Virus record (IMG/VR): IMGVR_UViG_3300031965_000026
Coordinates: 1 to 62,879 of that record
Reading direction: 5' to 3' (one strand)
DNA: 62,879 bases
DNA from: a virus
Taxonomy: Duplodnaviria; Caudoviricetes
Every line of letters starts with the position of its first letter. Within the stretch, counting starts at the first letter, position 1. A program made the translations under genes and the position numbers. This document shows, in pieces, positions 1 to 62,879 of this stretch. A model generated the notes under the pieces. It did not search any database. It was not told the origin of the DNA and was given only the letters and a program-made list of their open reading frames with translations.

Positions 1-831
1 TACATCAACGCCTGGGCGCGTGTCGACTACCCGGCGCTCGGGCGCTGGTACCCGGTCTCCCGGGCCGGGGAAGACAACCTGCTCATGACCTATGACGCCG
101 GGGGCACCGGCCGGCTCACGCCATTCTGGGCTGAGATGGCCGAGGCGGTAGCCGAGCTGCGACCGGTACTTCTCATCGTGGATACCGCAGCCGATGTGTT
201 TGGCGGCAACGAGAACGTCCGTACCCAGGTGCGGCAGTTCATCCAGGGCGCGCTCACCCGGATCGCGATCGAGTACCGCTGCGCGGTACTGCTCCTCGCG
301 CACCCCTCGGTGGCCGGGATCCAGAGCGGGGAGGGCACGGGCGGTAACACGGCCTGGAACAACACCGTGCGCTCCCGACTGTACCTCGAGCGGGAGGAGG
401 GCGACATCGCGACCTACCTCACCCGCAAGAAGGCGAACTATGCCTCACGCGGCGAGCGCATTGAGCTCCACTGGGCCGAGGGCGCGTTCTGGCAGTCCGG
501 AAGCAAGCTCGCGGCCAAGGCGATCGAGAACAGCGATCAGGCTGCGTTCCTGGCGTGCCTGCGCCGCGCGATGGATCAGAACCAGAACGTCGGCACGAAC
601 GAGAAGGGCAACTACGCCCCGCGAATGTTCTTGCGGTACCCGGAGGGCAGGGGAGCGAACCTGCGGCGCCTCGAGAAGGCGATGTACGCCCTCATCGACG
701 ACGGCGTGATCGCGTTCCTGAACAACGACAAGGGGCGCCCGTACCTCCAGATCATCGGTTACGCGCCGAAGCGGATGGGCACAAAAGGCGCCAAAACACC
801 ACCACAAGCACCTACCGATGCACCCACGTAA
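1..831 (+). CDS. C-terminal part of primase-helicase (AAA_25/RepA-like helicase); continues from 61520
   Basis: Walker B LLIVDT, LLLAHPS, AWNNTVRSRL, RKKANY motifs; same frame as 61520-62879. Confidence 0.88.
   Translation, partial: YINAWARVDYPALGRWYPVSRAGEDNLLMTYDAGGTGRLTPFWAEMAEAVAELRPVLLIVDTAADVFGGNENVRTQVRQFIQGALTRIAIEYRCAVLLLAHPSVAGIQSGEGTGGNTAWNNTVRSRLYLEREEGDIATYLTRKKANYASRGERIELHWAEGAFWQSGSKLAAKAIENSDQAAFLACLRRAMDQNQNVGTNEKGNYAPRMFLRYPEGRGANLRRLEKAMYALIDDGVIAFLNNDKGRPYLQIIGYAPKRMGTKGAKTPPQAPTDAPT
2..127. repeat. Terminal overlap, identical to 62754-62879 (circular assembly)
   Basis: 126 bp exact match between the two ends; the primase reading frame continues across the join. Confidence 0.95.
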
Positions 832-14233: not shown

Positions 14234-16396
14234 ATGCTCGAAGATCTGCACCTCCCCGTCGCCGGGGAGGACGGGACGCCTAGCGACGATGAGCACGTCG
14301 TTTCAGAAGCACGGGACCGGCTTGCTCGTGCCATCGAGTACGAATCGAACATCCGAGAGCAAGCGGCAGACGACGTCCGCTTCCTGAGCGGCGAGCAGTG
14401 GCCGCAGAAGGTCCGCCAGGAGCGCGAGGAGGACGGGCGGCCGGTCCTCACGATCAACAAGCTCCCGCAGTACGTCGAGCAGGTGGTGGGTGAGGAGCGC
14501 CAGAACCGGCCGTCCATCAAGGTGGTGCCGTCTTCCGGCGTCAGCGTGCCGAAGACCAAGAATCTGCGCGGGGACAAGGGCTACGATCTCGCCGAGATCT
14601 ACACCGGGCTCATCCGGGACATCGAGCAGCGCTCGGCCGCCGACCAAGCGTACGACTGGGCGTTCCAGCAGTCGGTCGAGCACGGGTTCGGCCACTGGCG
14701 GGTGCTGACCGAGTACTCGGGCGACGACTCCTTCGATCAGGACATCCGCATCAAGCGGATCCGGAACGCGTTCCAGGTGTACTGGGATCCGGTGTCGGAG
14801 GAGTGGGATAAGAGCGACGCGCAGTGGTGCATCGTCTCGAGCGAGATCCACAAGAACGATTTCCGTGCCCGGTGGCCGGACTCCTCGATGGCTGCTCTCG
14901 AGGGTGCCGAGGGTGACTGGACGGTGCACTGGTTCCACGACGAGCTGGTGCGCATTGCCGAGTACTGGCGCAAGGTCCCGCACACCAAGACGCTGCACCT
15001 GCTCTCCGACGGCGCGGTGGTCGACGGCGAGAAGTGGGTGAAGATTGGAGACGAGCTGGCCGAGCAGGGGATCACGAGCATCCGCGAGCGCCGGGTGAAG
15101 AGTTACAAGATCGAGTGGCGGCTCATGAACGGGGTCGAGGTGCTCGAGGGGCCGAAGGACTGGCCGGGGCAGTACATCCCGATCGTCACCTGCTACGGGC
15201 GCGAGCTCTTCGTCGACGGGCGACCCGAATACCGCGGGATCATCCGGCACGCGAAAGAGCCGCAGCGGATGTTCAACTTCTGGCGCACGAGCTCCACCGA
15301 GCAGGTGGCCCTCGCGCCCAAGGTCCCGTGGGTGGTCTCCGATGACCAGATCGACGGCTTCGAGGACCTCTGGGTGCACGCGAACACCAAGAACTACTCG
15401 TACCTGCCTTACCGCCACACGGGCGCGCCACCGCCGCAGCGTCCGACCATGCCACAGATCCCCCCGGGTGCGGTGAACGAGGCGCTGTCGGCCGGTGAGG
15501 ACATCAAGGCCGCGGTCGGCATGTACAACCCGAGCGTGGGCAACCGCGAGGATACGGCGTCGGGCATCGCCATCGAGCGGCTTCAGCGCAAGGCCGATAC
15601 CGCGACATTCTCGTTCATCGACAACCTCACGCGGGCCATCCGGCACACCGGCAAGATCCTGATCGATCTCATCCCGCGCGTGTACGACGGCGAGCGCATC
15701 GTGCGGATTGCCGCGTGGGACGAGACCGAGGACTTCGTCGAGATCAACAAGACGGTGCTCGACGAGCAAACGGGCGAGACCGTGGTCATGGCCGATCTCT
15801 CGGTCGGGCGCTATGACGTGCGGGTGCGGGCTGGGCCCTCTTACGCCACGCAGCGCGAGGAGGCGCAGGACGGGATGCTCCAGTTCATCCAGACGGTGCC
15901 GGACTTGGCCGCTCAGGTCGCCGATCTCTTCGCCGAAGCCATGGACTGGCCGAACGCGGACAAGATCGCGAAGAGACTCAAGAAGGCGCTGCCTCCCGCC
16001 ATGCTCGAGCCCGGCGAGCTCGACGAGGAGGACCAGCCGCCCCCGCCCGAGCCGACGCCCGCGGAGCAGGCCGAGCTCGCGAAGGCCGAGGCCGAGATGG
16101 CCAAGGCGGAGGCGACCAAGGCGAAGGCCGCGGCCGACACGCTCGCCGCACAGGTGGAGATGGCGACCGCCGGCCTGCACGCGGAGGCCGACGTGGTTCG
16201 CACCGAGGCCGATATCGAGAACGCCCGCACGGGCGTCGTCAACCAGCGGATGGACTCCGAGGAGCGGCTCGCGGCTCGCGGGCAAGACTCCGAGGCGCAG
16301 ATCCGAGAGCAGGTGGCCTCAGCGATCGCCGAGCTGATCGCGTCCGGCCAGCTCCAGCAGATCTTGGCCGCAGGACCGCAGCCACCCGCGCAGTAA
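14234..16396 (+). CDS. Portal protein (P22-like)
   Basis: DVRFLSGEQWP, RPVLTINKL, VRIAEYW, WPGQYIPIV, SGIAIERLQ, GRYDVRV..GPSYATQREE. Confidence 0.92.
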   Translation: MLEDLHLPVAGEDGTPSDDEHVVSEARDRLARAIEYESNIREQAADDVRFLSGEQWPQKVRQEREEDGRPVLTINKLPQYVEQVVGEERQNRPSIKVVPSSGVSVPKTKNLRGDKGYDLAEIYTGLIRDIEQRSAADQAYDWAFQQSVEHGFGHWRVLTEYSGDDSFDQDIRIKRIRNAFQVYWDPVSEEWDKSDAQWCIVSSEIHKNDFRARWPDSSMAALEGAEGDWTVHWFHDELVRIAEYWRKVPHTKTLHLLSDGAVVDGEKWVKIGDELAEQGITSIRERRVKSYKIEWRLMNGVEVLEGPKDWPGQYIPIVTCYGRELFVDGRPEYRGIIRHAKEPQRMFNFWRTSSTEQVALAPKVPWVVSDDQIDGFEDLWVHANTKNYSYLPYRHTGAPPPQRPTMPQIPPGAVNEALSAGEDIKAAVGMYNPSVGNREDTASGIAIERLQRKADTATFSFIDNLTRAIRHTGKILIDLIPRVYDGERIVRIAAWDETEDFVEINKTVLDEQTGETVVMADLSVGRYDVRVRAGPSYATQREEAQDGMLQFIQTVPDLAAQVADLFAEAMDWPNADKIAKRLKKALPPAMLEPGELDEEDQPPPPEPTPAEQAELAKAEAEMAKAEATKAKAAADTLAAQVEMATAGLHAEADVVRTEADIENARTGVVNQRMDSEERLAARGQDSEAQIREQVASAIAELIASGQLQQILAAGPQPPAQ

Positions 16397-49355: not shown

Positions 49356-49798
49356 CCTCGGCCACGACGGTCGCCCGTCTCGTCACAGAACTCTTTCCAA
49401 TGGCGCCAACCTTGAGCGCACCAGAACCCCCATTCCCGCACCACCGGTCCGGTCAGAAACAACGTCCACACCGGGCCTTTGACCAGCTCTAGCCGGTGAG
49501 CGTGACGCGCACGCCGGAACACCACGGTACCGGGCTCGACCCACCGGAAGTCCTCATCGGGCAGGACCTCGATCATCCGACCCGAGAGGCAGAGCGAGGC
49601 GCTCGGCCACGGATGGTCGTGCAACGCTCGGTCATCGTCGGAGCCGGTGAAGCAATGCAGGTAGGCGTTGCACACCGGGGTGCGCCGGATGAGGTACCAC
49701 CTCAACAGGTAGCCGTCGCCGATCGCCCGATCCGGTGGGCGACGTGCGGCCCACGCCTGAAGTCGGGGCGCGAGGTAGGCGGCGAGCGCCACGCTCAT
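49346..49798 (-). CDS. Cupin-like phage protein
   Basis: YLHCF..SDDDRALHDHPW...HRLEL...WTLFLTGP..REWGF. Confidence 0.75.
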   Translation of the reverse strand: MSVALAAYLAPRLQAWAARRPPDRAIGDGYLLRWYLIRRTPVCNAYLHCFTGSDDDRALHDHPWPSASLCLSGRMIEVLPDEDFRWVEPGTVVFRRARHAHRLELVKGPVWTLFLTGPVVREWGFWCAQGWRHWKEFCDETGDRRGRGCD

Positions 49799-50004
49799 GA
49801 TTCGGCCTGCCCCGCCTGCCAGCGCAGGAACCCGGCGATCGCGTTACGCCGTATAGATCGCCCCCGGTCGCTGTCGAGCGCGAGCGAATCGAGGTACTCG
49901 GCGATCGGGCCGGCATACCCCTGGTCGCGCTCGTGCGCCTCGCACTCGGCCTCGTCCGTGAATCGCTTCCCATCCTCGGAAACAAAAGTCGCTATCTGCT
50001 TCAT
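49795..50004 (-). CDS. Hypothetical protein
   Basis: FVSEDGKRFTDEAECEAHE. Confidence 0.6.
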   Translation of the reverse strand: MKQIATFVSEDGKRFTDEAECEAHERDQGYAGPIAEYLDSLALDSDRGRSIRRNAIAGFLRWQAGQAES

Positions 50005-50205
50005 GTGTCTTTCTCTTCCTGTGCTTGTAGGTGTTCGTCCCGCAGCAACCCCTTCAGTCGGCGGTTGCCGCATGGCCGGCAGAACTCGCCGAACGACACG
50101 TTGCGCGTGTTGAACAACTCGACCTCCGCGCGAGCCCCGCAGTCGCGGCACTGACGCACGAGCCGGCGTAGGTGGGCGGGCATGGGTTAGGGGGTGCCTT
50201 GTGTG

Positions 50206-50281
50206 CCTGTAGGCGGGAGTGACGGGGCAACTCATTCAATGGGCGTCAGCCGTGCAATGACCCCGCCACGCCCGCCACAGG
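50206..50281 (-). ncRNA. Solitary TIGR-like stem-loop guide unit spanning the Tas stop codon
   Basis: Long stem enclosing GTCA-TTGCACGGC-TGACGCCCA-TTGAATGAG(T)-TGCC. Confidence 0.65.
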
Positions 50282-51351
50282 TCTTTCAGTAACTTCTTCT
50301 CCATCACGCGCTTGGCGTGGTTGTCAATGTGCTTGGGGGTGTACTTGTAGACGGGCTTCCCCTTGCTGTCCGTGTGGCTGAACTCCTTCTCTGGATGCTT
50401 CTCCTTCCACCGCGCTTTCACCGCGAGATAGAAGTCGTAATAGCCGGGACTCTTGGCCTTTATGAGGGGGCCGCCGAGCGTCCACATGACAGCGCGTCGC
50501 TCGGCCACGTAGCCGTGCTCGAGCGCTTCATCCCCCTTCACGCGACGCTGGCGCTCGCCGTAGATGACGGCGAGGCCCATGCGCTTCCAGAGCTTGGCGG
50601 GATTCGCGTAGCGCGAGAGATCGCCGGCCTCGCCAACGATCTGGCCGAGCCCGAACTCACCGAACCCCGGGACGGACTTCTGCCAGGCGTGCACCGGGAG
50701 CTGCTTCGCGAGCTTCTGGATCTCTCGGCGAATCGGCAGCCGGCTCTTTCGAATGACGCTCATCGCGATGGCCAGGGTCTCGGTTGTGAAAAAGGCGGCG
50801 CGCTCGGGATCGCTGTCGCTCCCAAGTTTCTTGACTGCCTCGGCAGTGCCTCGCTCGATCGCCTGGATCTGAAGATTCAGGCGTATCTCCGCGCGAAGAA
50901 GTTGCCTGTGTATGCGCTCCTTTTCGGCGATCTTGTCGATGAGTTTCGCGATGGCGGGGGCGGTCGATTTCTGGACATCAGAGCACTTCTGGCCCCCGTC
51001 ATCGCGAAAGGGATCTGCCGATGGGGCGCCTTGGTGCTGGACGTCAAGGACATCCTGGCCGCCATCGGCAGAAGAGGGCTCTGTCGGCGGAGCAATCGCG
51101 CCGTGGGCATCAGGGCATGCATGGCTTTCACCGACAGAACAGGGGTCTTCCGGCCGGGCACCCACACGCTGGTCGTCGGACGTCCAATGGCCTCGACCGG
51201 AAGAAAGGGGTTCCGCTGACCGGGCAGGCTGCCCTTGGGCGTCTGTACGACCCTGGCCTCGGTCAGCGGAAGAAGGGGCCGGCGGGACAGCCGCGGTGTA
51301 GGCATCGTAGGATGTGTGGTCGCCGCCGGCAAAATCGTTGGGACTAGTCAC
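50236..51351 (-). CDS. Nop-domain / IS110-related protein without RuvC (TasA-like)
   Basis: Coiled coil, SVPGFGEFGLGQIVGEAGDLSRYANPAKLWKRMGL, C-terminal AKRVMEKKLLKDLW; no DEDD domain and no IS110 SG serine motif seen. Confidence 0.8.
   Translation of the reverse strand: MTSPNDFAGGDHTSYDAYTAAVPPAPSSADRGQGRTDAQGQPARSAEPLSSGRGHWTSDDQRVGARPEDPCSVGESHACPDAHGAIAPPTEPSSADGGQDVLDVQHQGAPSADPFRDDGGQKCSDVQKSTAPAIAKLIDKIAEKERIHRQLLRAEIRLNLQIQAIERGTAEAVKKLGSDSDPERAAFFTTETLAIAMSVIRKSRLPIRREIQKLAKQLPVHAWQKSVPGFGEFGLGQIVGEAGDLSRYANPAKLWKRMGLAVIYGERQRRVKGDEALEHGYVAERRAVMWTLGGPLIKAKSPGYYDFYLAVKARWKEKHPEKEFSHTDSKGKPVYKYTPKHIDNHAKRVMEKKLLKDLWRAWRGHCTADAH
50944..51333 (-). repeat. TIGR-like stem-loop array, 6 dual-spacer units
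   Basis: Each unit: unique stem, RCCA, N9, (Y/A)GAYGNC(C/T)A, N9, YGYY, complementary stem; periods 63, 66, 66, 66, 66 nt. Confidence 0.85.
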
Positions 51352-51943
51352 GGTTCGCCTGCCTCTGGAGCTTCTCCAGCTCCTCCGGCGTGTACACGTC
51401 GCGCACCTTCTTGTTCGCCGAGAGCTTCTTGGCGATCAACGTGTAGAATCGGGCCTCGATCGCATTCGAGCGCGCCAGGGTCGAGTGCCCGTCGATCATC
51501 TGGCGTATCTCGACGATTGTCGCGTCACCCAGCGCTAGCCCTCCGGTTATCGGATGGTCGAACAACGTTTCCTCGCGCTCCTCGGCTATCTGCTCGCGAC
51601 CAGAGAGACGGCTCCGAAAGTGCTCCACCGTCGGTTTGTTGTCCGTCACGGAGCGCGCCTCGCTGCGCAATCTGGAGCGCTTGTGCCGATGGATCTCTCT
51701 AGCCACATTGCGAGACGATGCCATCAGCGCGGGCCGGGCGAGCGTCGTGAACAGGTCCTGGTCTTCCTCGATCCAGCGCTCGAACAGGTCGCAGGCTGCG
51801 TCCCAGTTGTCGTGCGCTTCATCCAGCGCGCGGGACATCACGGCGTGCATGGTTGCCTTGGGGCCGAAGCGCGGGGTGCTCTCAGACGAGTCACCACCGG
51901 ACGCGGCGGGGTCAACGCGATAGGCTTGTGCTTGCTCAGTCAT
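51344..51943 (-). CDS. Hypothetical protein coupled to the Tas-like gene
   Basis: GAGGAG RBS; stop overlaps the Tas start; same lower-GC block. Confidence 0.75.
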   Translation of the reverse strand: MTEQAQAYRVDPAASGGDSSESTPRFGPKATMHAVMSRALDEAHDNWDAACDLFERWIEEDQDLFTTLARPALMASSRNVAREIHRHKRSRLRSEARSVTDNKPTVEHFRSRLSGREQIAEEREETLFDHPITGGLALGDATIVEIRQMIDGHSTLARSNAIEARFYTLIAKKLSANKKVRDVYTPEELEKLQRQANRD

Positions 51944-51952
51944 CTCATCTCC

Positions 51953-52165
51953 TCAAAACGGGATCAACGGCACCCACTCGGGGCACCCCTCGGCCTGCGC
52001 CTCACTCGGCACCGGTTGTTCCCACCTCTTGCAGTACCCGCCGGCCTGCTCCGCGTCGAAGTAGTCGCACTCGGCCATGCCGCCGTGCGTGCACGGCGTC
52101 ACGACGGGCAGCGATTCGATCAGCTCAATTAGTTGCTGACGCTTGTCTGGAGTGAACGGTCCCAT
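51953..52165 (-). CDS. Small Cys-rich protein
   Basis: C..ECDYF....GYCKRW...GCPEW..LIPF. Confidence 0.6.
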   Translation of the reverse strand: MGPFTPDKRQQLIELIESLPVVTPCTHGGMAECDYFDAEQAGGYCKRWEQPVPSEAQAEGCPEWVPLIPF

Positions 52166-53756
52166 CCTCGGTCCTCCATTGATAGCTCTCTATTTTTGGA
52201 TACTTACCGGCAATGCGTACCCAGATGGCTTCCGGTTCGCGCAACTTGTTTCCGTCGATACTCAACCAAAGAAGCGCTTCTTCAACCGAGCCTGGAACCA
52301 GAGAGATGGAACGCTCTTGCCACCAACGTTCAGCGCGATAGCGTGCGTAGTTGGTTTGGTCGTGAGAAAGCGCTATCCATTCCCGATACACGATCAGCCC
52401 GCAGTGATAGTCTACGCGCAGGGTGGGTATCCCGCTTTTGCCCTCGTGACGGTGATACGACACCCGGTCGACCGGCACCCGCTCGGGCGGCTGGGAGAGG
52501 ATGGCAAGCTCCGTCGGCTTGTCATCATGCGGAGCGTCGCCGGCCGACGACTCCCACTGGTAGCCGCAGCTCGGGCAGAGCATCACCGAGAGGAGCACGA
52601 TCTCGTCGCACGTCGGGCACACCTTCGTCGGCGCCGCACCCGGCTCGCGGGGCCTTGCGCCCTTGACGTCGATCGCGTCGATCGGCCCGTGCTCTGCAAT
52701 ATTTCCAGCGAAGTCGAGCACGAGGCAGTCTTGCTTTCGCGGGTGGATCCGAAGCCCGCGTCCCACAAACTGGTAGTAGAGCCCCGCGCTCTTCGTGGGG
52801 CGCAGCATGATCACCGCGTCGATGTGCGGCGCGTCATAGCCCTCGCTCAGCACGTTGACGTTCACCAGCGCCGGGATCTTCCCCGTCTGGTGGTTGCGGA
52901 TATGCCGGTCCCGCTCCTCCCTGGGCGTCTCGGAGGACACCACGGGTGCGGTAACGCCCAGCGCGAAAAGCGCACGGCTGATCTGGTGCGCATGTTCGAT
53001 ACCGGCACAGAACACGAGCCAGGCGCGCCGATTGGCGCAGCGATCCACGATCTCGCGTGCCGTGCGCTCGACCAGATCGCCGGCGGTGACCGCGCGCTCG
53101 AGCTCGTCGGCCCGATACTCGCCGCCCCGGACGTGGACGCTGCCGAGCTCGGCGTGGGCCTTCGTCGCTTTCGATGTAAGCCTGCATAGATACCCCTCCT
53201 CGATCAACTGACGAATGGGCGCCTCGTAGGCAATCGCGTTCAGGATGTAGCTGGGGCCGACGACCATCCCGGGCCCGAGCCGGTACGGGGTCGCCGTGAA
53301 GCCGATGACGCGCAAGTGCGGCGTCTGCGCCTTCGCCTCGGCGATGAAGCGGCGGTACACACCCTCGCCCGCGAGCGGGATTCGGTGCGCCTCGTCGACG
53401 AAGATCAAATCGAGCGGCCCGATCTCAGCCGCCCGGCGATAGACGCTCTGAATCGAAGCAAAGATGATCGGGCTCTGCGTATCACGATACCCGAGCCCGG
53501 CCGAGTACACGCCCATCGGCGCCTCGGGCCAGTGCACGGCGAGTTTCTCAGCGTTCTGACGGACTAATTCGCGAGTATGAGCAAGGATGCAGATCCGCGT
53601 GCTCGGCCACTGCGTGAGGTACTCGCGCACCATCTCTGCGAAGACGACACTTTTTCCCGACCCGGTCGGGAGAACTATGCAGGCGTTATCAGCGTGCGCC
53701 CTCATATAAGCGTTCACCGCGTCGATGGATTCCCGCTGATATGCCCTAATCTGCAC
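52125..53756 (-). CDS. SF2 DEAH helicase with C-terminal Zn ribbon (RadD-like)
   Basis: LPTGSGKS, VDEAH, GFTATP, QFVGRGLR, CPTC..CPSCG. Confidence 0.92.
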   Translation of the reverse strand: MQIRAYQRESIDAVNAYMRAHADNACIVLPTGSGKSVVFAEMVREYLTQWPSTRICILAHTRELVRQNAEKLAVHWPEAPMGVYSAGLGYRDTQSPIIFASIQSVYRRAAEIGPLDLIFVDEAHRIPLAGEGVYRRFIAEAKAQTPHLRVIGFTATPYRLGPGMVVGPSYILNAIAYEAPIRQLIEEGYLCRLTSKATKAHAELGSVHVRGGEYRADELERAVTAGDLVERTAREIVDRCANRRAWLVFCAGIEHAHQISRALFALGVTAPVVSSETPREERDRHIRNHQTGKIPALVNVNVLSEGYDAPHIDAVIMLRPTKSAGLYYQFVGRGLRIHPRKQDCLVLDFAGNIAEHGPIDAIDVKGARPREPGAAPTKVCPTCDEIVLLSVMLCPSCGYQWESSAGDAPHDDKPTELAILSQPPERVPVDRVSYHRHEGKSGIPTLRVDYHCGLIVYREWIALSHDQTNYARYRAERWWQERSISLVPGSVEEALLWLSIDGNKLREPEAIWVRIAGKYPKIESYQWRTEDGTVHSRQASATN

Positions 53757-54501
53757 GCTTGAGTTCTCGGTAGCACGACTTGCAGGTATACCCATGGCCG
53801 TCAGGCGACCTTGGGTGTCGGTAGAACTCAGAGAGGGGCTTGATCTCGTCGCATCGACCGCACGGCTTTTCCGTGCGCAGTCTCATCCATTCGTTGTTCT
53901 TGATTCTGGCCTCTTGAAGCTCGGGCGCGTGATGGCGCGAATGCTCGGAACGAGACATTATTTCGAGGTTTTTCGGATCGTTGTTATGCTTGTTCCCGTC
54001 CTTGTGGTGAACCACCTCATCAGATCTGAGCTTTCTGCCGAGGACACCCTCTATCACAGCACGATGCTCGTGGCGACCAAACAGCTTACGGTAGGTCGTG
54101 GGTTTGACTGATTCGACTCGACTCAATTGCGCCTCGCGAGAGTTAGCCCGACGAACAGACTCCGGCGTGATGTAGTGCGGGTCGCCGTACCGGCGAAGAC
54201 GCTGAGTGTGCAGTCCGCAGTAGTGCTTTCCGCCTTTCTCTGTGGTCCTTTCGCAGCCGGGTACGGCACACTTCTTTGGTGGCTTTTTCCTGGCCCTCCC
54301 TCGGATGCTCGATTGCTCTGCGGCAAGGCAGCCGCACGATCGGGTCCGCCCACCACGAAGTTGCGAGCCAGCCACTAGGGCGTCCTTTCCGCAATCGCAC
54401 TGGCACACCCAGTACACACCGCCATCACGCCCTCGCTTGCCGCTGTCCGCCAACACGACCAGACGCTCGAAGCGTTGACCGACAATGTCATGCCTGTTCA
54501 T
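53746..54501 (-). CDS. HNH homing endonuclease
   Basis: GQRFERLVV, WVCQCDCG, SCGC, HEHRAV..VHHKDGNKHNNDPKNL. Confidence 0.9.
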   Translation of the reverse strand: MNRHDIVGQRFERLVVLADSGKRGRDGGVYWVCQCDCGKDALVAGSQLRGGRTRSCGCLAAEQSSIRGRARKKPPKKCAVPGCERTTEKGGKHYCGLHTQRLRRYGDPHYITPESVRRANSREAQLSRVESVKPTTYRKLFGRHEHRAVIEGVLGRKLRSDEVVHHKDGNKHNNDPKNLEIMSRSEHSRHHAPELQEARIKNNEWMRLRTEKPCGRCDEIKPLSEFYRHPRSPDGHGYTCKSCYRELKRAD

Positions 54502-61519: not shown

Positions 61520-62879
61520 ATGAGCTCCACCACCGGGAACGGAGGCCCGCCACCGGGGAACCTCGTGTTTCTGGGCCCGAACTGGCAAACCGAGTTCGAG
61601 CGGCGCGAAGCGCAGCGTGCGCAGTCACCCGATGTCGCATTCCGGGATGTCCTTGCCCGATCGGGCTTCGAGCCGGGCGCGGTAATAGCCGACAGCAAGA
61701 TCCACCGCTTCGCCGGCCCCGAGGAGCGCCGCGGCCGCCGCAGCGGCTGGTATGTGCTGCACGTGCTGGGTGATCTCGCCTACGGTGCCTTCGGCGACTG
61801 GCGTCACGGCAAGCACACCTGGTGCTCGCGCGACTTAGGCGAGCTGGCCCCCGCCGAGCGGGCCGAGATGGACCAGCGGCTACGTACCGCGAAGGAGCAG
61901 CGCGAGCGGCGACAGAAGGAGGCGGAGACGGAGGCCATGGCGCGCTTGCGAGCCGCTCGAGCAGGCGACGGGCACCCCTACCTCGTGCGCAAGAAGATCG
62001 GCGTGCACGGCCTCACGGTGGACGAGGAGGGCTGGCTGCTCGTGCCGGTGGTGGACGAGGACGGCACGATGCGCAGCCTACAGCGGATCTCGCCTACCGG
62101 GACAAAGCTATTCCTGGCCGGCGGGCGAACCCGGGGGTGTTGCTGCGTGATCGGAGAGCCCGGGCGCACGGTCTATCTCGCCGAGGGCTATGCCACGGCG
62201 GTGACGGTGCACGAGGTGACGGGGCAGTGCGCGGTGGCCGCGTTCAGCGCGGGGAACCTGACGCCGGTGGCGAGGGTGCTGCGGGCGCGGTGGCCGACCG
62301 CGCACCTCGTGGTGGCCGCGGACAACGACCGCAAGACCGAGGGCAACCCCGGCCTGACTCAGGGGCAGGCGGCGGCCGCAGCCGTCGGGGGCCGGTGCGT
62401 AGCGCCGGTGTTCGCAGGCGATCAGGGCACCGATTTCAACGATCTGGCGGTGCTCGAGGGGGTCGAGCGGGTGCGGGGGCAGCTCGAGGAGCGGGCGGTG
62501 CGGCTCATGCCCGCTACTCGCTGGGCGGGCAAGGTGGTGCCGCCGCGGGAATGGCTGCTCGAGAGTTGGATCCCGATGCAGCAGACCACCGCGCTCTACG
62601 GAGACGGGGGCACCGGCAAGACGCTGCTCGCGCAGCAGATCGGAACGGTGGTGTCCCTCGGGCTGCCGTTCTTGGGGATCCCAACGACGGGCGGCGTCGT
62701 GCTCGGGTACTTCTGTGAGGACTCCGACGAGGAGCTCCACCGCAGGCAGGCGGACATCAACGCCTGGGCGCGTGTCGACTACCCGGCGCTCGGGCGCTGG
62801 TACCCGGTCTCCCGGGCCGGGGAAGACAACCTGCTCATGACCTATGACGCCGGGGGCACCGGCCGGCTCACGCCATTCT
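61520..62879 (+). CDS. Toprim primase-helicase, N-terminal part (runs off the end; absent from the ORF track)
   Basis: DSKIHRF, SGWY, FGDWR, LAEGYATA, AFSAGNL, AADND, GDGGTGKT. Confidence 0.88.
   Translation, partial: MSSTTGNGGPPPGNLVFLGPNWQTEFERREAQRAQSPDVAFRDVLARSGFEPGAVIADSKIHRFAGPEERRGRRSGWYVLHVLGDLAYGAFGDWRHGKHTWCSRDLGELAPAERAEMDQRLRTAKEQRERRQKEAETEAMARLRAARAGDGHPYLVRKKIGVHGLTVDEEGWLLVPVVDEDGTMRSLQRISPTGTKLFLAGGRTRGCCCVIGEPGRTVYLAEGYATAVTVHEVTGQCAVAAFSAGNLTPVARVLRARWPTAHLVVAADNDRKTEGNPGLTQGQAAAAAVGGRCVAPVFAGDQGTDFNDLAVLEGVERVRGQLEERAVRLMPATRWAGKVVPPREWLLESWIPMQQTTALYGDGGTGKTLLAQQIGTVVSLGLPFLGIPTTGGVVLGYFCEDSDEELHRRQADINAWARVDYPALGRWYPVSRAGEDNLLMTYDAGGTGRLTPF

What the first reader, a model, noticed from the sequence alone, without database searches (positions are those of the whole stretch)
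50944..51351. The guide array is written in-frame inside the Tas coding sequence
Seen: unit periods are 63, 66, 66, 66 and 66 nt, all multiples of three, with no stop codon. The GTG at 51351 overlaps the upstream gene's stop. No ATG lies between the array and the first predicted Nop helix (LIDKIAEKERIHRQLL). The array therefore reads as a roughly 135-aa G(Q/H)xxxDx(Q/H) pseudo-repeat N-terminus. Inference: one RNA serves as both mRNA and pre-guide, so processing the guides would destroy the message (built-in autoregulation), and spacer choice is constrained to avoid in-frame stops.
Basis: partly seen in the sequence, partly recalled or inferred. Interest (0 to 1): 0.85.

Follow-up and report, generated by a model that had tools for sequence, protein, structure and literature searches.

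The report
Guide-RNA array inside its effector gene
A soil phage carries six guide-RNA hairpins of a TIGR-Tas system written in frame as the first 135 codons of the gene for the protein that uses them, an arrangement that relatives conserve but that a 2026 preprint has already described in general terms.

Summary
On the minus strand, 51330-50944 holds six tandem stem-loop units. Their first box C motifs are 63, 66, 66, 66 and 66 nt apart. Each unit has variable paired stems, two 9-nt spacers and box C/box D motifs, as in published stem-loop TIGR arrays. All six lie in one frame of a 371-codon ORF (50236-51351). Its last 236 codons encode a nuclease-less TasA: the profile matches TasR (PDB 9MTY) at E 1.1e-17, and the nine best fold matches are Tas structures.

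The window alone proves little, because two of three frames are open at 67% GC. Relatives decide it. In 31 of 32 independent homologous loci the Tas frame has no stop between the upstream gene and the Tas core. That is 1 stop in 8,952 nt, against 39 and 96 in the other frames. In 27 of 32 a start codon overlaps the upstream gene's stop.

Translation therefore most likely starts before the array and reads through it. Periods that are multiples of three are not conserved; an open frame is. Autoregulation through competing processing and translation is plausible but untested.

Xu et al. 2026 (bioRxiv) already report intragenic, frame-preserving stem-loop arrays, so this is a new member of a known kind.

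The parts
51344..51943 (-). Upstream gene X (199 aa). It is a conserved neighbour of this TasA clade with no known family. Its C-terminal codons carry the Shine-Dalgarno-like word for the tasA start.
   Evidence: ORF. tblastn finds X homologues upstream of tas in 54 of 107 sequences searched; 3 of these are self-hits of two doubtful queries. No Pfam, PHROG, PDB-sequence or fold match. GC by codon position is 0.625/0.46/0.81, typical of coding sequence.
51344..51351 (-). Translational coupling site: the GTG start of tasA (51351-51349) overlaps the TAG stop of X (51346-51344) by 8 nt.
   Evidence: The same 4/8/11/14-nt overlap occurs in 27 of 32 unique homologous loci. A Shine-Dalgarno-like word lies upstream in 27 of 28 coupled starts, the window included.
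51278..51330 (-). tigRNA unit 0. Stem 51330-51323 pairs with 51285-78. Box C CCA 51319-17, spacer A 51316-08, box D CG, loop AUGC, box C CUA, spacer B 51298-90, box D UG.
   Evidence: (stem of 9), alignment.
51211..51271 (-). tigRNA unit 1. 12-bp perfect stem, box C CCA at 51256, two 9-nt spacers. The first box D is AG, the one departure among 12 intervals.
   Evidence: (I2).
51146..51204 (-). tigRNA unit 2. Box C at 51190. Its spacer B holds the only other in-frame canonical start (GTG, codon 63).
   Evidence: (I8).
51079..51139 (-). tigRNA unit 3. Box C at 51124, preceded by AG rather than GG, hence S-H in the peptide.
51014..51072 (-). tigRNA unit 4. 11-bp perfect stem, box C at 51058.
   Evidence: (I4).
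50944..51009 (-). tigRNA unit 5. 18-nt arms, box C at 50992. Its 3' arm encodes residues 131-136, the beginning of the first Tas helix.
   Evidence: (I1).
50236..51351 (-). Whole tasA ORF, 371 codons plus stop. Codons 1-135 are the array; codons 136-371 are the TasA core.
   Evidence: In the AlphaFold2 model residues 1-130 have pLDDT about 40 and no secondary structure, while residues 131-371 are mostly above 90.
50239..50946 (-). TasA core: coiled coil plus Nop-like RNA-binding domain, with no nuclease domain.
   Evidence: The profile of 25 homologues matches PDB 9MTY (TasR) at E 1.1e-17. The nine best Foldseek matches are TasH/TasR structures, E 7e-8 to 9e-7. 448 homologues in the protein search. 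GC by codon position 0.63/0.415/0.81.

Best explanation
This is a stem-loop TIGR-TasA system of a soil phage. Its whole six-unit guide array is embedded, in frame, as the first 135 codons of tasA.

Likely mechanism:
- Transcription of the densely packed minus-strand operon (helicase, small ORF, X, tasA and the genes after it) gives one RNA.
- Ribosomes that finish gene X restart at the overlapping GTG.
- They read through the six hairpins, producing a disordered, acidic N-terminal tail.
- They then make the functional 236-aa TasA core.

The same stretch of RNA, when folded and cut near the stem bases, yields six tigRNAs. Each has two 9-nt spacers that would guide a TasA dimer to DNA. By analogy with tested TasA proteins, the outcome would be repression rather than cleavage.

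The only canonical start lies 5' of the array. A transcript cut into guides therefore can no longer make TasA, and a transcript covered by ribosomes cannot fold into guides. Guide maturation and translation compete on the same molecule. TasA binding to its own hairpins would probably give negative feedback.

Shown here: the array architecture, membership in the Tas family, and selection for an open frame with a coupled start.

Inferred: actual translation of the array, processing from the same transcript, feedback, and the repressor role.
For: Array architecture:
- Six units of stem / CCA-N9-YG / 4-nt loop / C(C/U)A-N9-YG / stem. 11 of 12 intervals fit the published stem-loop rule (rule read in the methods passages of Xu et al. 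2026).
- Stems co-vary and the fold z-score is -6.65.
- No other such array exists in the 62.9-kb genome.

Protein family:
- Profile match to TasR 9MTY at E 1.1e-17.
- The top nine fold matches are TasH/TasR.

Open frame under selection:
- In 32 unique homologous loci with at least 80 nt between X and the core, the Tas frame is stop-free in 31. The other two frames are stop-free in 13 and 4.
- Total stops are 1, 39 and 96 in 8,952 nt; log10 P is about -10 if the Tas frame were a random one of the three.
- Of 60 units in 28 loci, 35 are in phase 1, 24 in phase 2 and 1 in the stop-creating phase 0 (P 8e-10).
- Arrays lying outside tas ORFs do carry stops: 6 of 26 clusters are closed in all three frames.

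Start codon:
- A start overlapping X's stop in 27 of 32 loci, with a Shine-Dalgarno-like word in 27 of 28.
- No canonical start within 12 codons of the core start in 21 of 32 loci and in the window.
- In 6 loci the coupled start is the only canonical in-frame start upstream of the core.

Spacer turnover with the frame kept:
- L005 and L012 are 91.5% identical in the core and 90.8% in X, but 75.7% in the array. The differences sit mostly in the 9-nt spacers.

Other support:
- The same layout occurs in cultured phages: Mycobacterium phage Rich gp50 and Rhizobium phage RHph_X2_25.
- Xu et al. 2026 report the phenomenon in general and show small-RNA reads from intragenic units of BlTasA (sections 5 and 11).
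Against: - The array lacks the codon-position GC signature of this genome's genes: 0.76/0.62/0.60 against 0.63/0.415/0.81 in the core. Nothing in its composition says 'translated'; RNA constraints dominate.
- In the window alone a second frame is also open.
- The tail is predicted to be disordered.
- The tail is dispensable. Some relatives start at the core: about 20 of 120 called proteins; loci L004 and L036 couple the core ATG directly to the upstream stop; L051 and L057 have their own start next to the core.
- The 32 loci are not phylogenetically independent, so the P values are too small.
- My unit detector is strict. It misses units (it missed unit 1 of the window) and has a background of about 0.2 hits per kb on the opposite strand.
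- There is no RNA or protein evidence for this phage.
- Internal promoters cannot be excluded. A sigma-70 scan found none, but the host is unknown.
Confidence: 0.72

Rival explanations
1. The array is an untranslated leader. TasA starts just after, or within, the last hairpin at a non-canonical codon (ATC, CTC or ATA are available), and the long open frame is a by-product of high GC.
For: A second frame is open in the window. The array has no GC3 signature. Some relatives do start at the core. An AAGGAG word lies at codons 144-145.
Against: The Tas frame is open in 31 of 32 relatives, against 13 and 4 for the other frames. Coupled start codons with Shine-Dalgarno-like words are conserved. Phase 0 is avoided in 59 of 60 units. 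The AAGGAG lies downstream of the conserved first helix and only 3 nt before the next near-cognate codon, so using it would truncate conserved residues.
Confidence: 0.07
2. The array is translated as in the best explanation, but guides are made from separate, shorter transcripts driven by promoters inside or upstream of the array. Guide maturation then does not consume the mRNA, and there is no built-in autoregulation.
For: Xu et al. 2026 state that their data cannot tell processing of a long precursor from independent transcription of intragenic units (discussion).
Against: No sigma-70-like site in 49500-54000; this is weak evidence because the host is unknown. The genes are packed with overlapping or abutting stops and starts. 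Even with a separate promoter, TasA could still bind the same hairpins on the full-length mRNA.
Confidence: 0.2
3. The array-encoded tail has a protein-level function of its own. It is acidic and disordered and could act, for example, as a nucleic-acid mimic or autoinhibitory tail on a DNA-binding protein. That function, and not only read-through, would be what keeps the frame open.
For: The 135-residue tail has 20 D+E against 9 K+R, while the core has 28 against 47. The frame is conserved.
Against: The Asp and Gln/His positions are the RNA motifs read in frame. Both phase 1 and phase 2 are used in relatives, which gives different peptides. Spacer-encoded residues turn over freely. Tail length ranges from 0 to more than 200 residues. 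Some relatives lack the tail.
Confidence: 0.1
4. This is not a guide array at all, but a low-complexity protein repeat whose DNA happens to form hairpins.
For: The peptide is a 22-residue pseudo-repeat.
Against: The stems differ in sequence between units yet stay paired, with double changes at 7 of 10 positions. The conserved letters are the published box C/box D positions. Between close relatives the variable letters are the two 9-nt spacers. The same units occur outside ORFs in relatives. The adjoining protein is a Tas.
Confidence: 0.02

Closest known systems
Intragenic stem-loop TIGR arrays (Xu et al. 2026, bioRxiv 10.64898/2026.09.09.750476; I read sections 5, 11 and 13 and passages of the methods and legends)
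   Same: [quoted passage not shown] For Bifidobacterium longum TasA it shows small-RNA reads from intragenic units. The window is a 5'-end case of this kind.
   Different: Here the whole array, six of six units and the only array in the genome, is inside the ORF. In the sections I read, the preprint gives no test that the frame is under selection, and no mention of the coupled start at the upstream gene's stop, of phase avoidance, or of gene X. Its figures and supplements were not visible to me and may hold more.
Stem-loop TIGR-TasA of the Peromyscus leucopus gut contig (Faure et al. 2025, PMC12045711, section 9; Guan et al. 2026, bioRxiv 10.64898/2026.08.11.744272, passages only)
   Same: A nuclease-less TasA. 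Tandem hairpins with variable palindromic stems, two 8-12-nt spacers flanked by box C/D-like motifs, and processing into single stem-loop units.
   Different: That array (13 units in three subarrays) is described with a ~450-nt intergenic region separating subarrays, and the text I read describes no unit inside tas. The window's protein is only a distant relative: 18-20% identity to solved Tas structures.
Dual-repeat TIGR-TasR/TasH (Faure et al. 2025; PDB 9MTY, 9VZX)
   Same: The same protein fold and family. A dual-spacer guide with box C/D-like motifs.
   Different: Dual-repeat arrays have conserved edge and loop repeats and give 36-nt tigRNAs cut by a Tas Y/H dyad. They have nuclease domains. 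Their arrays are mostly outside the gene.
IS110-family recombinases with bridge RNA (PDB 8WT6, 9T56)
   Same: A related C-terminal domain: weak Pfam Transposase_20 hit at E 0.0095, phrog_4285 'transposase' at E 3.3e-19, fold matches at E 1e-3 to 1e-2. The guide RNA is encoded at the 5' side of the protein's gene.
   Different: No DEDD/RuvC domain here. That the bridge RNA is a single non-coding RNA upstream of the CDS, not a translated array, is my recollection plus the discussion of Faure 2025.
L7Ae translational autoregulation through a k-turn in its own mRNA leader (PMC5539422, PMC6298567; search listing and abstract openings only)
   Same: A protein of the box C/D RNP world binds a structured element on its own mRNA and represses its own translation. 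This is the kind of feedback proposed here.
   Different: There the element is in the 5' leader, is not a guide RNA and is not translated. Feedback by TasA is untested.

Membership tests
TIGR-Tas, stem-loop type, TasA effector | Tas protein: coiled coil plus Nop-like RNA-binding C-terminal domain | tested here: met
   Profile A1 against PDB sequences: 9MTY (TasR) at E 1.1e-17 over the C-terminal domain. The AlphaFold2 model (pLDDT above 90 for 131-371) has TasH/TasR structures as Foldseek ranks 1-9, E 7e-8 to 9e-7, TM 0.53-0.71 normalised by target.
TIGR-Tas, stem-loop type, TasA effector | TasA subtype: no HNH or RuvC nuclease domain | tested here: met
   Pfam gives only a weak Transposase_20 match. 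The only extra sequence is the array-encoded residues 1-130, which have no predicted structure.
TIGR-Tas, stem-loop type, TasA effector | [quoted passage not shown] | tested here: met
   Six units. 11 of 12 intervals fit box C-N9-box D exactly; one box D is AG. A 4-nt loop separates the two intervals in all six. Rule taken from the methods passages of Xu et al. 2026.
TIGR-Tas, stem-loop type, TasA effector | Variable but consistently palindromic flanks that form a stem | tested here: met
   Arms of 11-18 nt. Five hairpins in the minimum-free-energy fold, z -6.65; the sixth found. 87.9% of stem cells paired, 7 of 10 pairs with changes on both sides, reached by 0 of 500 shuffles.
TIGR-Tas, stem-loop type, TasA effector | Conserved CUU at the stem base (proposed processing site) | tested here: inconclusive
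   By my reading of the alignment, CUU lies at or next to the 5' stem base in 4 of 6 units (units 1, 2, 4 and 5) and is absent in units 0 and 3.
TIGR-Tas, stem-loop type, TasA effector | Spacers vary between related loci while motifs and stems are kept | tested here: met
   Tested on a pair of relatives, not on the window. L005 against L012: core 91.5%, X 90.8%, array 75.7% identity, with differences concentrated in the 9-nt spacers.
TIGR-Tas, stem-loop type, TasA effector | The array is expressed, processed into unit-length tigRNAs and bound by Tas, and guides DNA binding | not testable with these tools
   No run on record as RNA holds the stretch. No convincing target in the phage's own genome: the best is 2 mismatches of 18, near the number expected by chance by my estimate.
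Intragenic (in-frame) TIGR array as described by Xu et al. 2026 | Units lie inside the tas CDS without breaking the frame and map to a disordered protein region | tested here: met
   ORF. Residues 1-130 have pLDDT about 40 and no secondary structure. Frame conservation in 31 of 32 relatives.
IS110-family RNA-guided recombinase | N-terminal DEDD (RuvC-like) catalytic domain and a bridge RNA with two loops | tested here: not met
   No such domain by Pfam or in the model. The RNA is a tandem array of dual-spacer hairpins. Fold matches to IS621/ISCro4 are weaker (E 1e-3 to 1e-2) than to Tas.
Box C/D sRNP (Nop5 with fibrillarin and L7Ae) | Nop5 fold with fibrillarin-binding N-terminal domain; partner genes for fibrillarin and L7Ae | tested here: not met
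   Nop5 structures appear only at E 0.3-1. The neighbouring genes are a helicase, an HNH endonuclease, a Cas4-like exonuclease and unknowns.

The most novel reading that the evidence does not exclude
In this TasA clade the in-ORF array would be an obligate switch, not merely a tolerated insertion. TasA can only be made by ribosomes that start at the stop of the conserved partner gene X and melt the guide hairpins as they pass. Each transcript would therefore be either translated or matured into guides. Newly made TasA would load guides from its own mRNA in cis, which fixes the protein-to-guide ratio and keeps a phage's effector on its own guides. X, a conserved helical protein with no known family, would be a so far unrecognised accessory factor of stem-loop TIGR systems, possibly acting in processing or loading.
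Probability: 0.25. Interest if true: 0.7.

Novelty: new member of a known kind. Interest (0 to 1): 0.42.

Why it matters
A guide-RNA array that is also protein-coding sequence is a rare case of one stretch of nucleic acid serving two molecular roles in an RNA-guided system. The consequences are concrete:
- It limits which spacers are allowed.
- It ties effector synthesis to guide production.
- It explains how densely packed phage genomes carry an array with no intergenic space.
- It shows why gene callers give Tas proteins wildly different N-termini: -11 to +290 residues.

The general phenomenon is already in print as a preprint, so the value here lies in three things:
1. Comparative evidence that the frame and a coupled upstream start are under selection. 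This argues that the array really is translated, a point I did not see tested in the parts of the preprint that I read.
2. A conserved, unannotated partner gene.
3. Cultured phages in laboratory hosts (Mycobacterium phage Rich, Rhizobium phage RHph_X2_25) in which competition between translation and maturation could be tested directly.

Tried and rejected
- Tandem Repeats Finder reported nothing in the array, even at score 30. The units are too divergent, so I used inverted repeats, folding and motif scans instead.
- My first unit detector (CCA-N13-17-CCA plus a stem) missed many units. I replaced it with the published box C-N9-box D rule. That rule still misses units with one motif departure, including the window's unit 1, so all unit counts are lower bounds.
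- 'Periods are multiples of three' as a family rule: rejected. 21 of 32 spacings between detected units are 3n. Given that only two phases are allowed, about half would be expected.
- Self-targeting: I searched the whole 62.9-kb genome, which is all of G000, for spacer A and spacer B pairs in four arrangements with gaps of 0-2. The best hit has 2 mismatches of 18, at 14756 for unit 4. The others have 3 mismatches, and several of those lie in the array itself. I do not count this as a target.
- RNA evidence: no RNA holder was listed. One DNA run, possibly the source sample, holds the stretch.
- Rfam: no match in 50100-52000 apart from two chance-level microRNA hits.
- Gene X: no Pfam family in 14 members beyond single hits at E 0.005-0.008, no PHROG, no PDB sequence match below E 0.2, no fold match below E 4. 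X is not detectable as phage Rich gp51.
- Literature: three full-text searches. Among the TIGR papers found, only Xu et al. 2026 treats arrays inside the coding sequence in the passages I read. The passages shown from Guan et al. 2026 and the 'find' passages plus sections 6, 9 and 24 of Faure et al. 2025 do not. Supplements and figures were not visible and may bear on this. TIGRSafari is not public, so I cannot say whether this locus is already catalogued.
- Not used: complex prediction, the metagenome-contig scan, the search of protein representatives, the protein-atlas search.
Full report
WHAT IS THERE. The minus strand of 50236-51351 is one ORF of 371 codons. Its 5' third is not ordinary coding sequence. 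Inverted-repeat search finds arms of 11-18 nt spaced 30-37 nt apart. Folding 51300-50930 gives five consecutive hairpins, with a minimum free energy of -177.7 kcal/mol and a z-score of -6.65; none of 100 shuffles folds as well.

A motif scan shows six units. Every unit reads: stem, CCA, 9 variable nt, YG, a 4-nt loop (AYGN), CCA (CUA once), 9 variable nt, YG, stem. Eleven of the twelve 14-nt intervals fit the box C/box D rule that Xu et al. 2026 use to detect stem-loop TIGR arrays (methods passages).

The stems differ in sequence from unit to unit but stay paired. In the alignment of the six units, 87.9% of stem cells are paired, and 7 of 10 stem positions show changes on both sides. None of 500 shuffles reaches this, and slid registers give 15-56% paired. 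A scan of the whole 62.9-kb genome finds no second array, only scattered background hits with short stems and irregular loops. Tandem Repeats Finder and Rfam see nothing.

THE PROTEIN. Residues 136-371 have 448 homologues in the protein search. A profile of 25 of them matches the solved TasR (PDB 9MTY, the TIGR-TasR complex of Faure et al. 2025) at E 1.1e-17. An AlphaFold2 model of the full ORF is confident (mostly above 90) for residues 131-371. Its nine best Foldseek matches in the PDB are all TasH or TasR structures; IS110-type recombinases follow, and Nop5 appears only weakly. There is no nuclease domain, so the protein is a TasA.

Residues 1-130 have pLDDT near 40 and no secondary structure. 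The 3' arm of the last hairpin encodes the first residues of the first helix, so the array and the folded protein abut without a gap. The surrounding genes are a phage replication module: a helicase, an HNH endonuclease and a Cas4-like exonuclease. They are packed with overlapping or abutting stops and starts.

IS THE IN-FRAME READING MORE THAN CHANCE? Not from the window alone. The genome is 66.8% GC. A second minus-strand frame is also free of stops across the array (stops 0, 0 and 6 in the three frames). The array also lacks the strong third-position GC of this genome's genes: 0.76/0.62/0.60 by codon position, against 0.63/0.415/0.81 in the Tas core.

The decisive evidence is comparative. 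I fetched 106 loci encoding relatives, 80 from viral contigs and 26 from genomes. The seed motifs were in the C-terminal domain, so the choice of loci is blind to the N-terminus.
- In 49 of the 106 loci, and in the window, tblastn aligns the start of the core.
- 39 of these 50, the window included, also have a homologue of the upstream gene X.
- 35 are unique, and 32 of them, the window excluded, have at least 80 nt between X's stop and the core.
- In 31 of those 32, the Tas frame has no stop across this interval. The other two frames are stop-free in 13 and 4.
- In total there are 1, 39 and 96 stops in 8,952 nt. If the Tas frame were a random one of the three, log10 P would be about -10.

The loci are related to each other, so this probability is too small, but the contrast between frames is not subtle.

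Further comparative points:
- In 27 of the 32 loci an ATG, GTG or TTG in the Tas frame overlaps X's stop by 4, 8, 11 or 14 nt. A Shine-Dalgarno-like word precedes 27 of 28 such starts, the window included.
- In 21 of 32 loci, and in the window, no canonical start lies within 12 codons of the core start. In six loci the coupled start is the only canonical in-frame start upstream of the core.
- The interval ranges from 82 to 602 nt, so units have been gained and lost while the frame was kept.
- Arrays that lie outside tas ORFs in other relatives do contain stops: 6 of 26 clusters are closed in all three frames.
- The exception fits the pattern. L051, the one locus with an in-frame stop, has its own Shine-Dalgarno word and ATG six codons before the core.

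WHAT EXACTLY IS CONSERVED. It is not a period of 3n. Of 32 spacings between detected units in relatives, 21 are multiples of three. In L086 I read 87, 111 and 85 nt.

What is conserved is the phase of each unit. Box D 'UG' followed by the loop's 'A' makes UGA in one phase. Of 60 units in 28 loci, 35 are in phase 1 (box C read xxC CAN, giving Gln or His, as in the window), 24 are in phase 2, and one is in the UGA phase (P 8e-10). That one unit, in L057, lies upstream of a start codon next to the core.

The G(Q/H)xxxDx(Q/H) peptide repeat is therefore the RNA motifs read in phase 1. Spacers are 9 nt, three codons, so replacing a spacer never shifts the frame. Two close relatives, L005 and L012, show this. 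They are 91.5% identical in the core and 90.8% in X, but 75.7% in the array, and the differences sit mostly in the spacers. The constraint on spacers is mild, because only about two whole codons per spacer can become stops.

HOW IT MOST LIKELY WORKS. Shown: a stem-loop TIGR array, a TasA, and selection for an open frame and a coupled start. Inferred: ribosomes finishing X restart at the GTG, translate the six hairpins into a disordered acidic tail (20 D+E against 9 K+R), and go on to make the core. The same RNA, folded and cut near the stem bases, yields six dual-spacer guides. CUU, the proposed processing mark, is present in 4 of 6 units by my reading.

The only canonical start is 5' of the array. 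Cutting therefore separates the start from the core, and translation melts the hairpins, so the two fates compete. TasA binding to its own hairpins would give negative feedback. This resembles the binding of L7Ae to a k-turn in its own mRNA leader (PMC5539422 and PMC6298567; search listing and abstract openings only).

The tail itself is probably a passenger. Relatives exist without it, both phases are used, and its length is free. By analogy with the TasA proteins tested by Xu et al. 2026, the system would repress rather than cut its target (abstract and discussion). The targets are unknown. The phage's own genome has no convincing match.

WHAT IS KNOWN. Faure et al. 2025 (PMC12045711, section 9) describe stem-loop TIGR arrays with TasA. 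Xu et al. [quoted passage not shown] They say such arrays usually fall in disordered regions and that this may link maturation and translation. Section 11 shows small-RNA reads from intragenic units of a Bifidobacterium TasA. The discussion leaves open whether such guides come from the tas transcript or from internal promoters.

The finding is therefore a correct, independent rediscovery of a published phenomenon: a new member of a known kind. In the parts of the literature I could read, I did not find the following:
- the frame-versus-frame test;
- the conserved start at the upstream gene's stop;
- the phase rule;
- gene X, which has no Pfam, PHROG, PDB or fold match.

Supplements, figures and the TIGRSafari resource were not available to me.

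TRACTABLE MODELS. A tblastn search of deposited phage genomes finds four cultured phages with distant TasA homologues.
- Mycobacterium phage Rich. The gene order is helicase gp52, gp51, gp50. The annotated GTG of gp50 overlaps gp51's stop, and the N-terminus of gp50 contains at least two units with stems of 10-14 bp, folding at -28.6 and -45.0 kcal/mol.
- Rhizobium phage RHph_X2_25. It has an X homologue (HMM E 5.5e-12) and unit-like motifs in the N-terminus of its annotated Tas CDS. I noted a stem for one of them by eye but did not fold them.

These make the translation-versus-maturation question testable in laboratory hosts.

VERDICT. The in-frame reading is supported by strong comparative evidence. 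Autoregulation is plausible but untested. Novelty is limited by the 2026 preprint. Confidence that the array codons are translated from the coupled start is about 0.75.

Noticed in passing
window 51344-51943 (-); homologues upstream of tas in loci such as L003, L006, L018, L085, L087: Gene X (199 aa) is a conserved upstream neighbour of this TasA clade. tblastn finds it in 54 of 107 sequences searched, 3 of which are self-hits of doubtful queries. It is translationally coupled to tasA. It is all-helical in the AlphaFold2 model (mean pLDDT 79.9, pTM 0.36) and has no Pfam, PHROG, PDB-sequence or fold match. In the text of Faure 2025 that I read, the only partner of TasA mentioned is a ParB-like protein.
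   Followed up: partly
window 1-127 and 62753-62879: The last 120 nt of the window recur at positions 8-127. The contig ends therefore overlap, as expected for a circular or terminally redundant, probably complete, phage genome.
   Followed up: partly
window 49795-50235 (-) and 50001-50183 (-): The 146-aa ORF that abuts the tasA stop (TGA then ATG) lacks the coding GC signature: 0.71/0.59/0.65 by codon position. It has no family match. A 60-aa ORF in another frame inside it carries two CxxC pairs and looks like a small zinc-ribbon protein. Which one is real is open.
   Followed up: no
L108 (Mycobacterium phage Rich, KY224000.1) 1126-2109; L107 (Rhizobium phage RHph_X2_25, MW960032.1) 1243-2298: Two cultured phages carry distant TasA homologues annotated as hypothetical proteins, with unit-like box C/box D motifs inside their annotated N-termini. 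In Rich, two units fold into 10-14-bp stems, and the gene order (helicase, then unknown gene, then tas with a GTGA overlap) mirrors the window. In RHph_X2_25 the candidates were only motif-scanned. Rhodococcus phage Peregrin and Gordonia phage Morrissey also have homologues, which I did not inspect.
   Followed up: partly
L004 3001-3966; proteins P0003, P0005, P0035 and others: In other relatives the core ATG is coupled directly to the upstream stop, and array-like sequence sits inside the protein, after the first coiled-coil helix. These insertions carry GDEG(H/Q)-like peptide repeats. In 69 of 96 unique loci at least one unit lies inside the tas stop-to-stop ORF. Others have arrays upstream or downstream, for example 16 units outside in L080.
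   Followed up: partly
window 14739-14756 (-): The best match in the phage's own genome to a spacer pair is for unit 4 (reverse complement of spacer B followed by spacer A, no gap), with 2 mismatches of 18. By my estimate this is about the level expected by chance over all arrangements tried. I did not check which gene it lies in.
   Followed up: no
L005 and L012, interval between X and the tas core: Within these arrays two stem types alternate and recur. This suggests growth by tandem duplication of two-unit blocks followed by spacer replacement.
   Followed up: no
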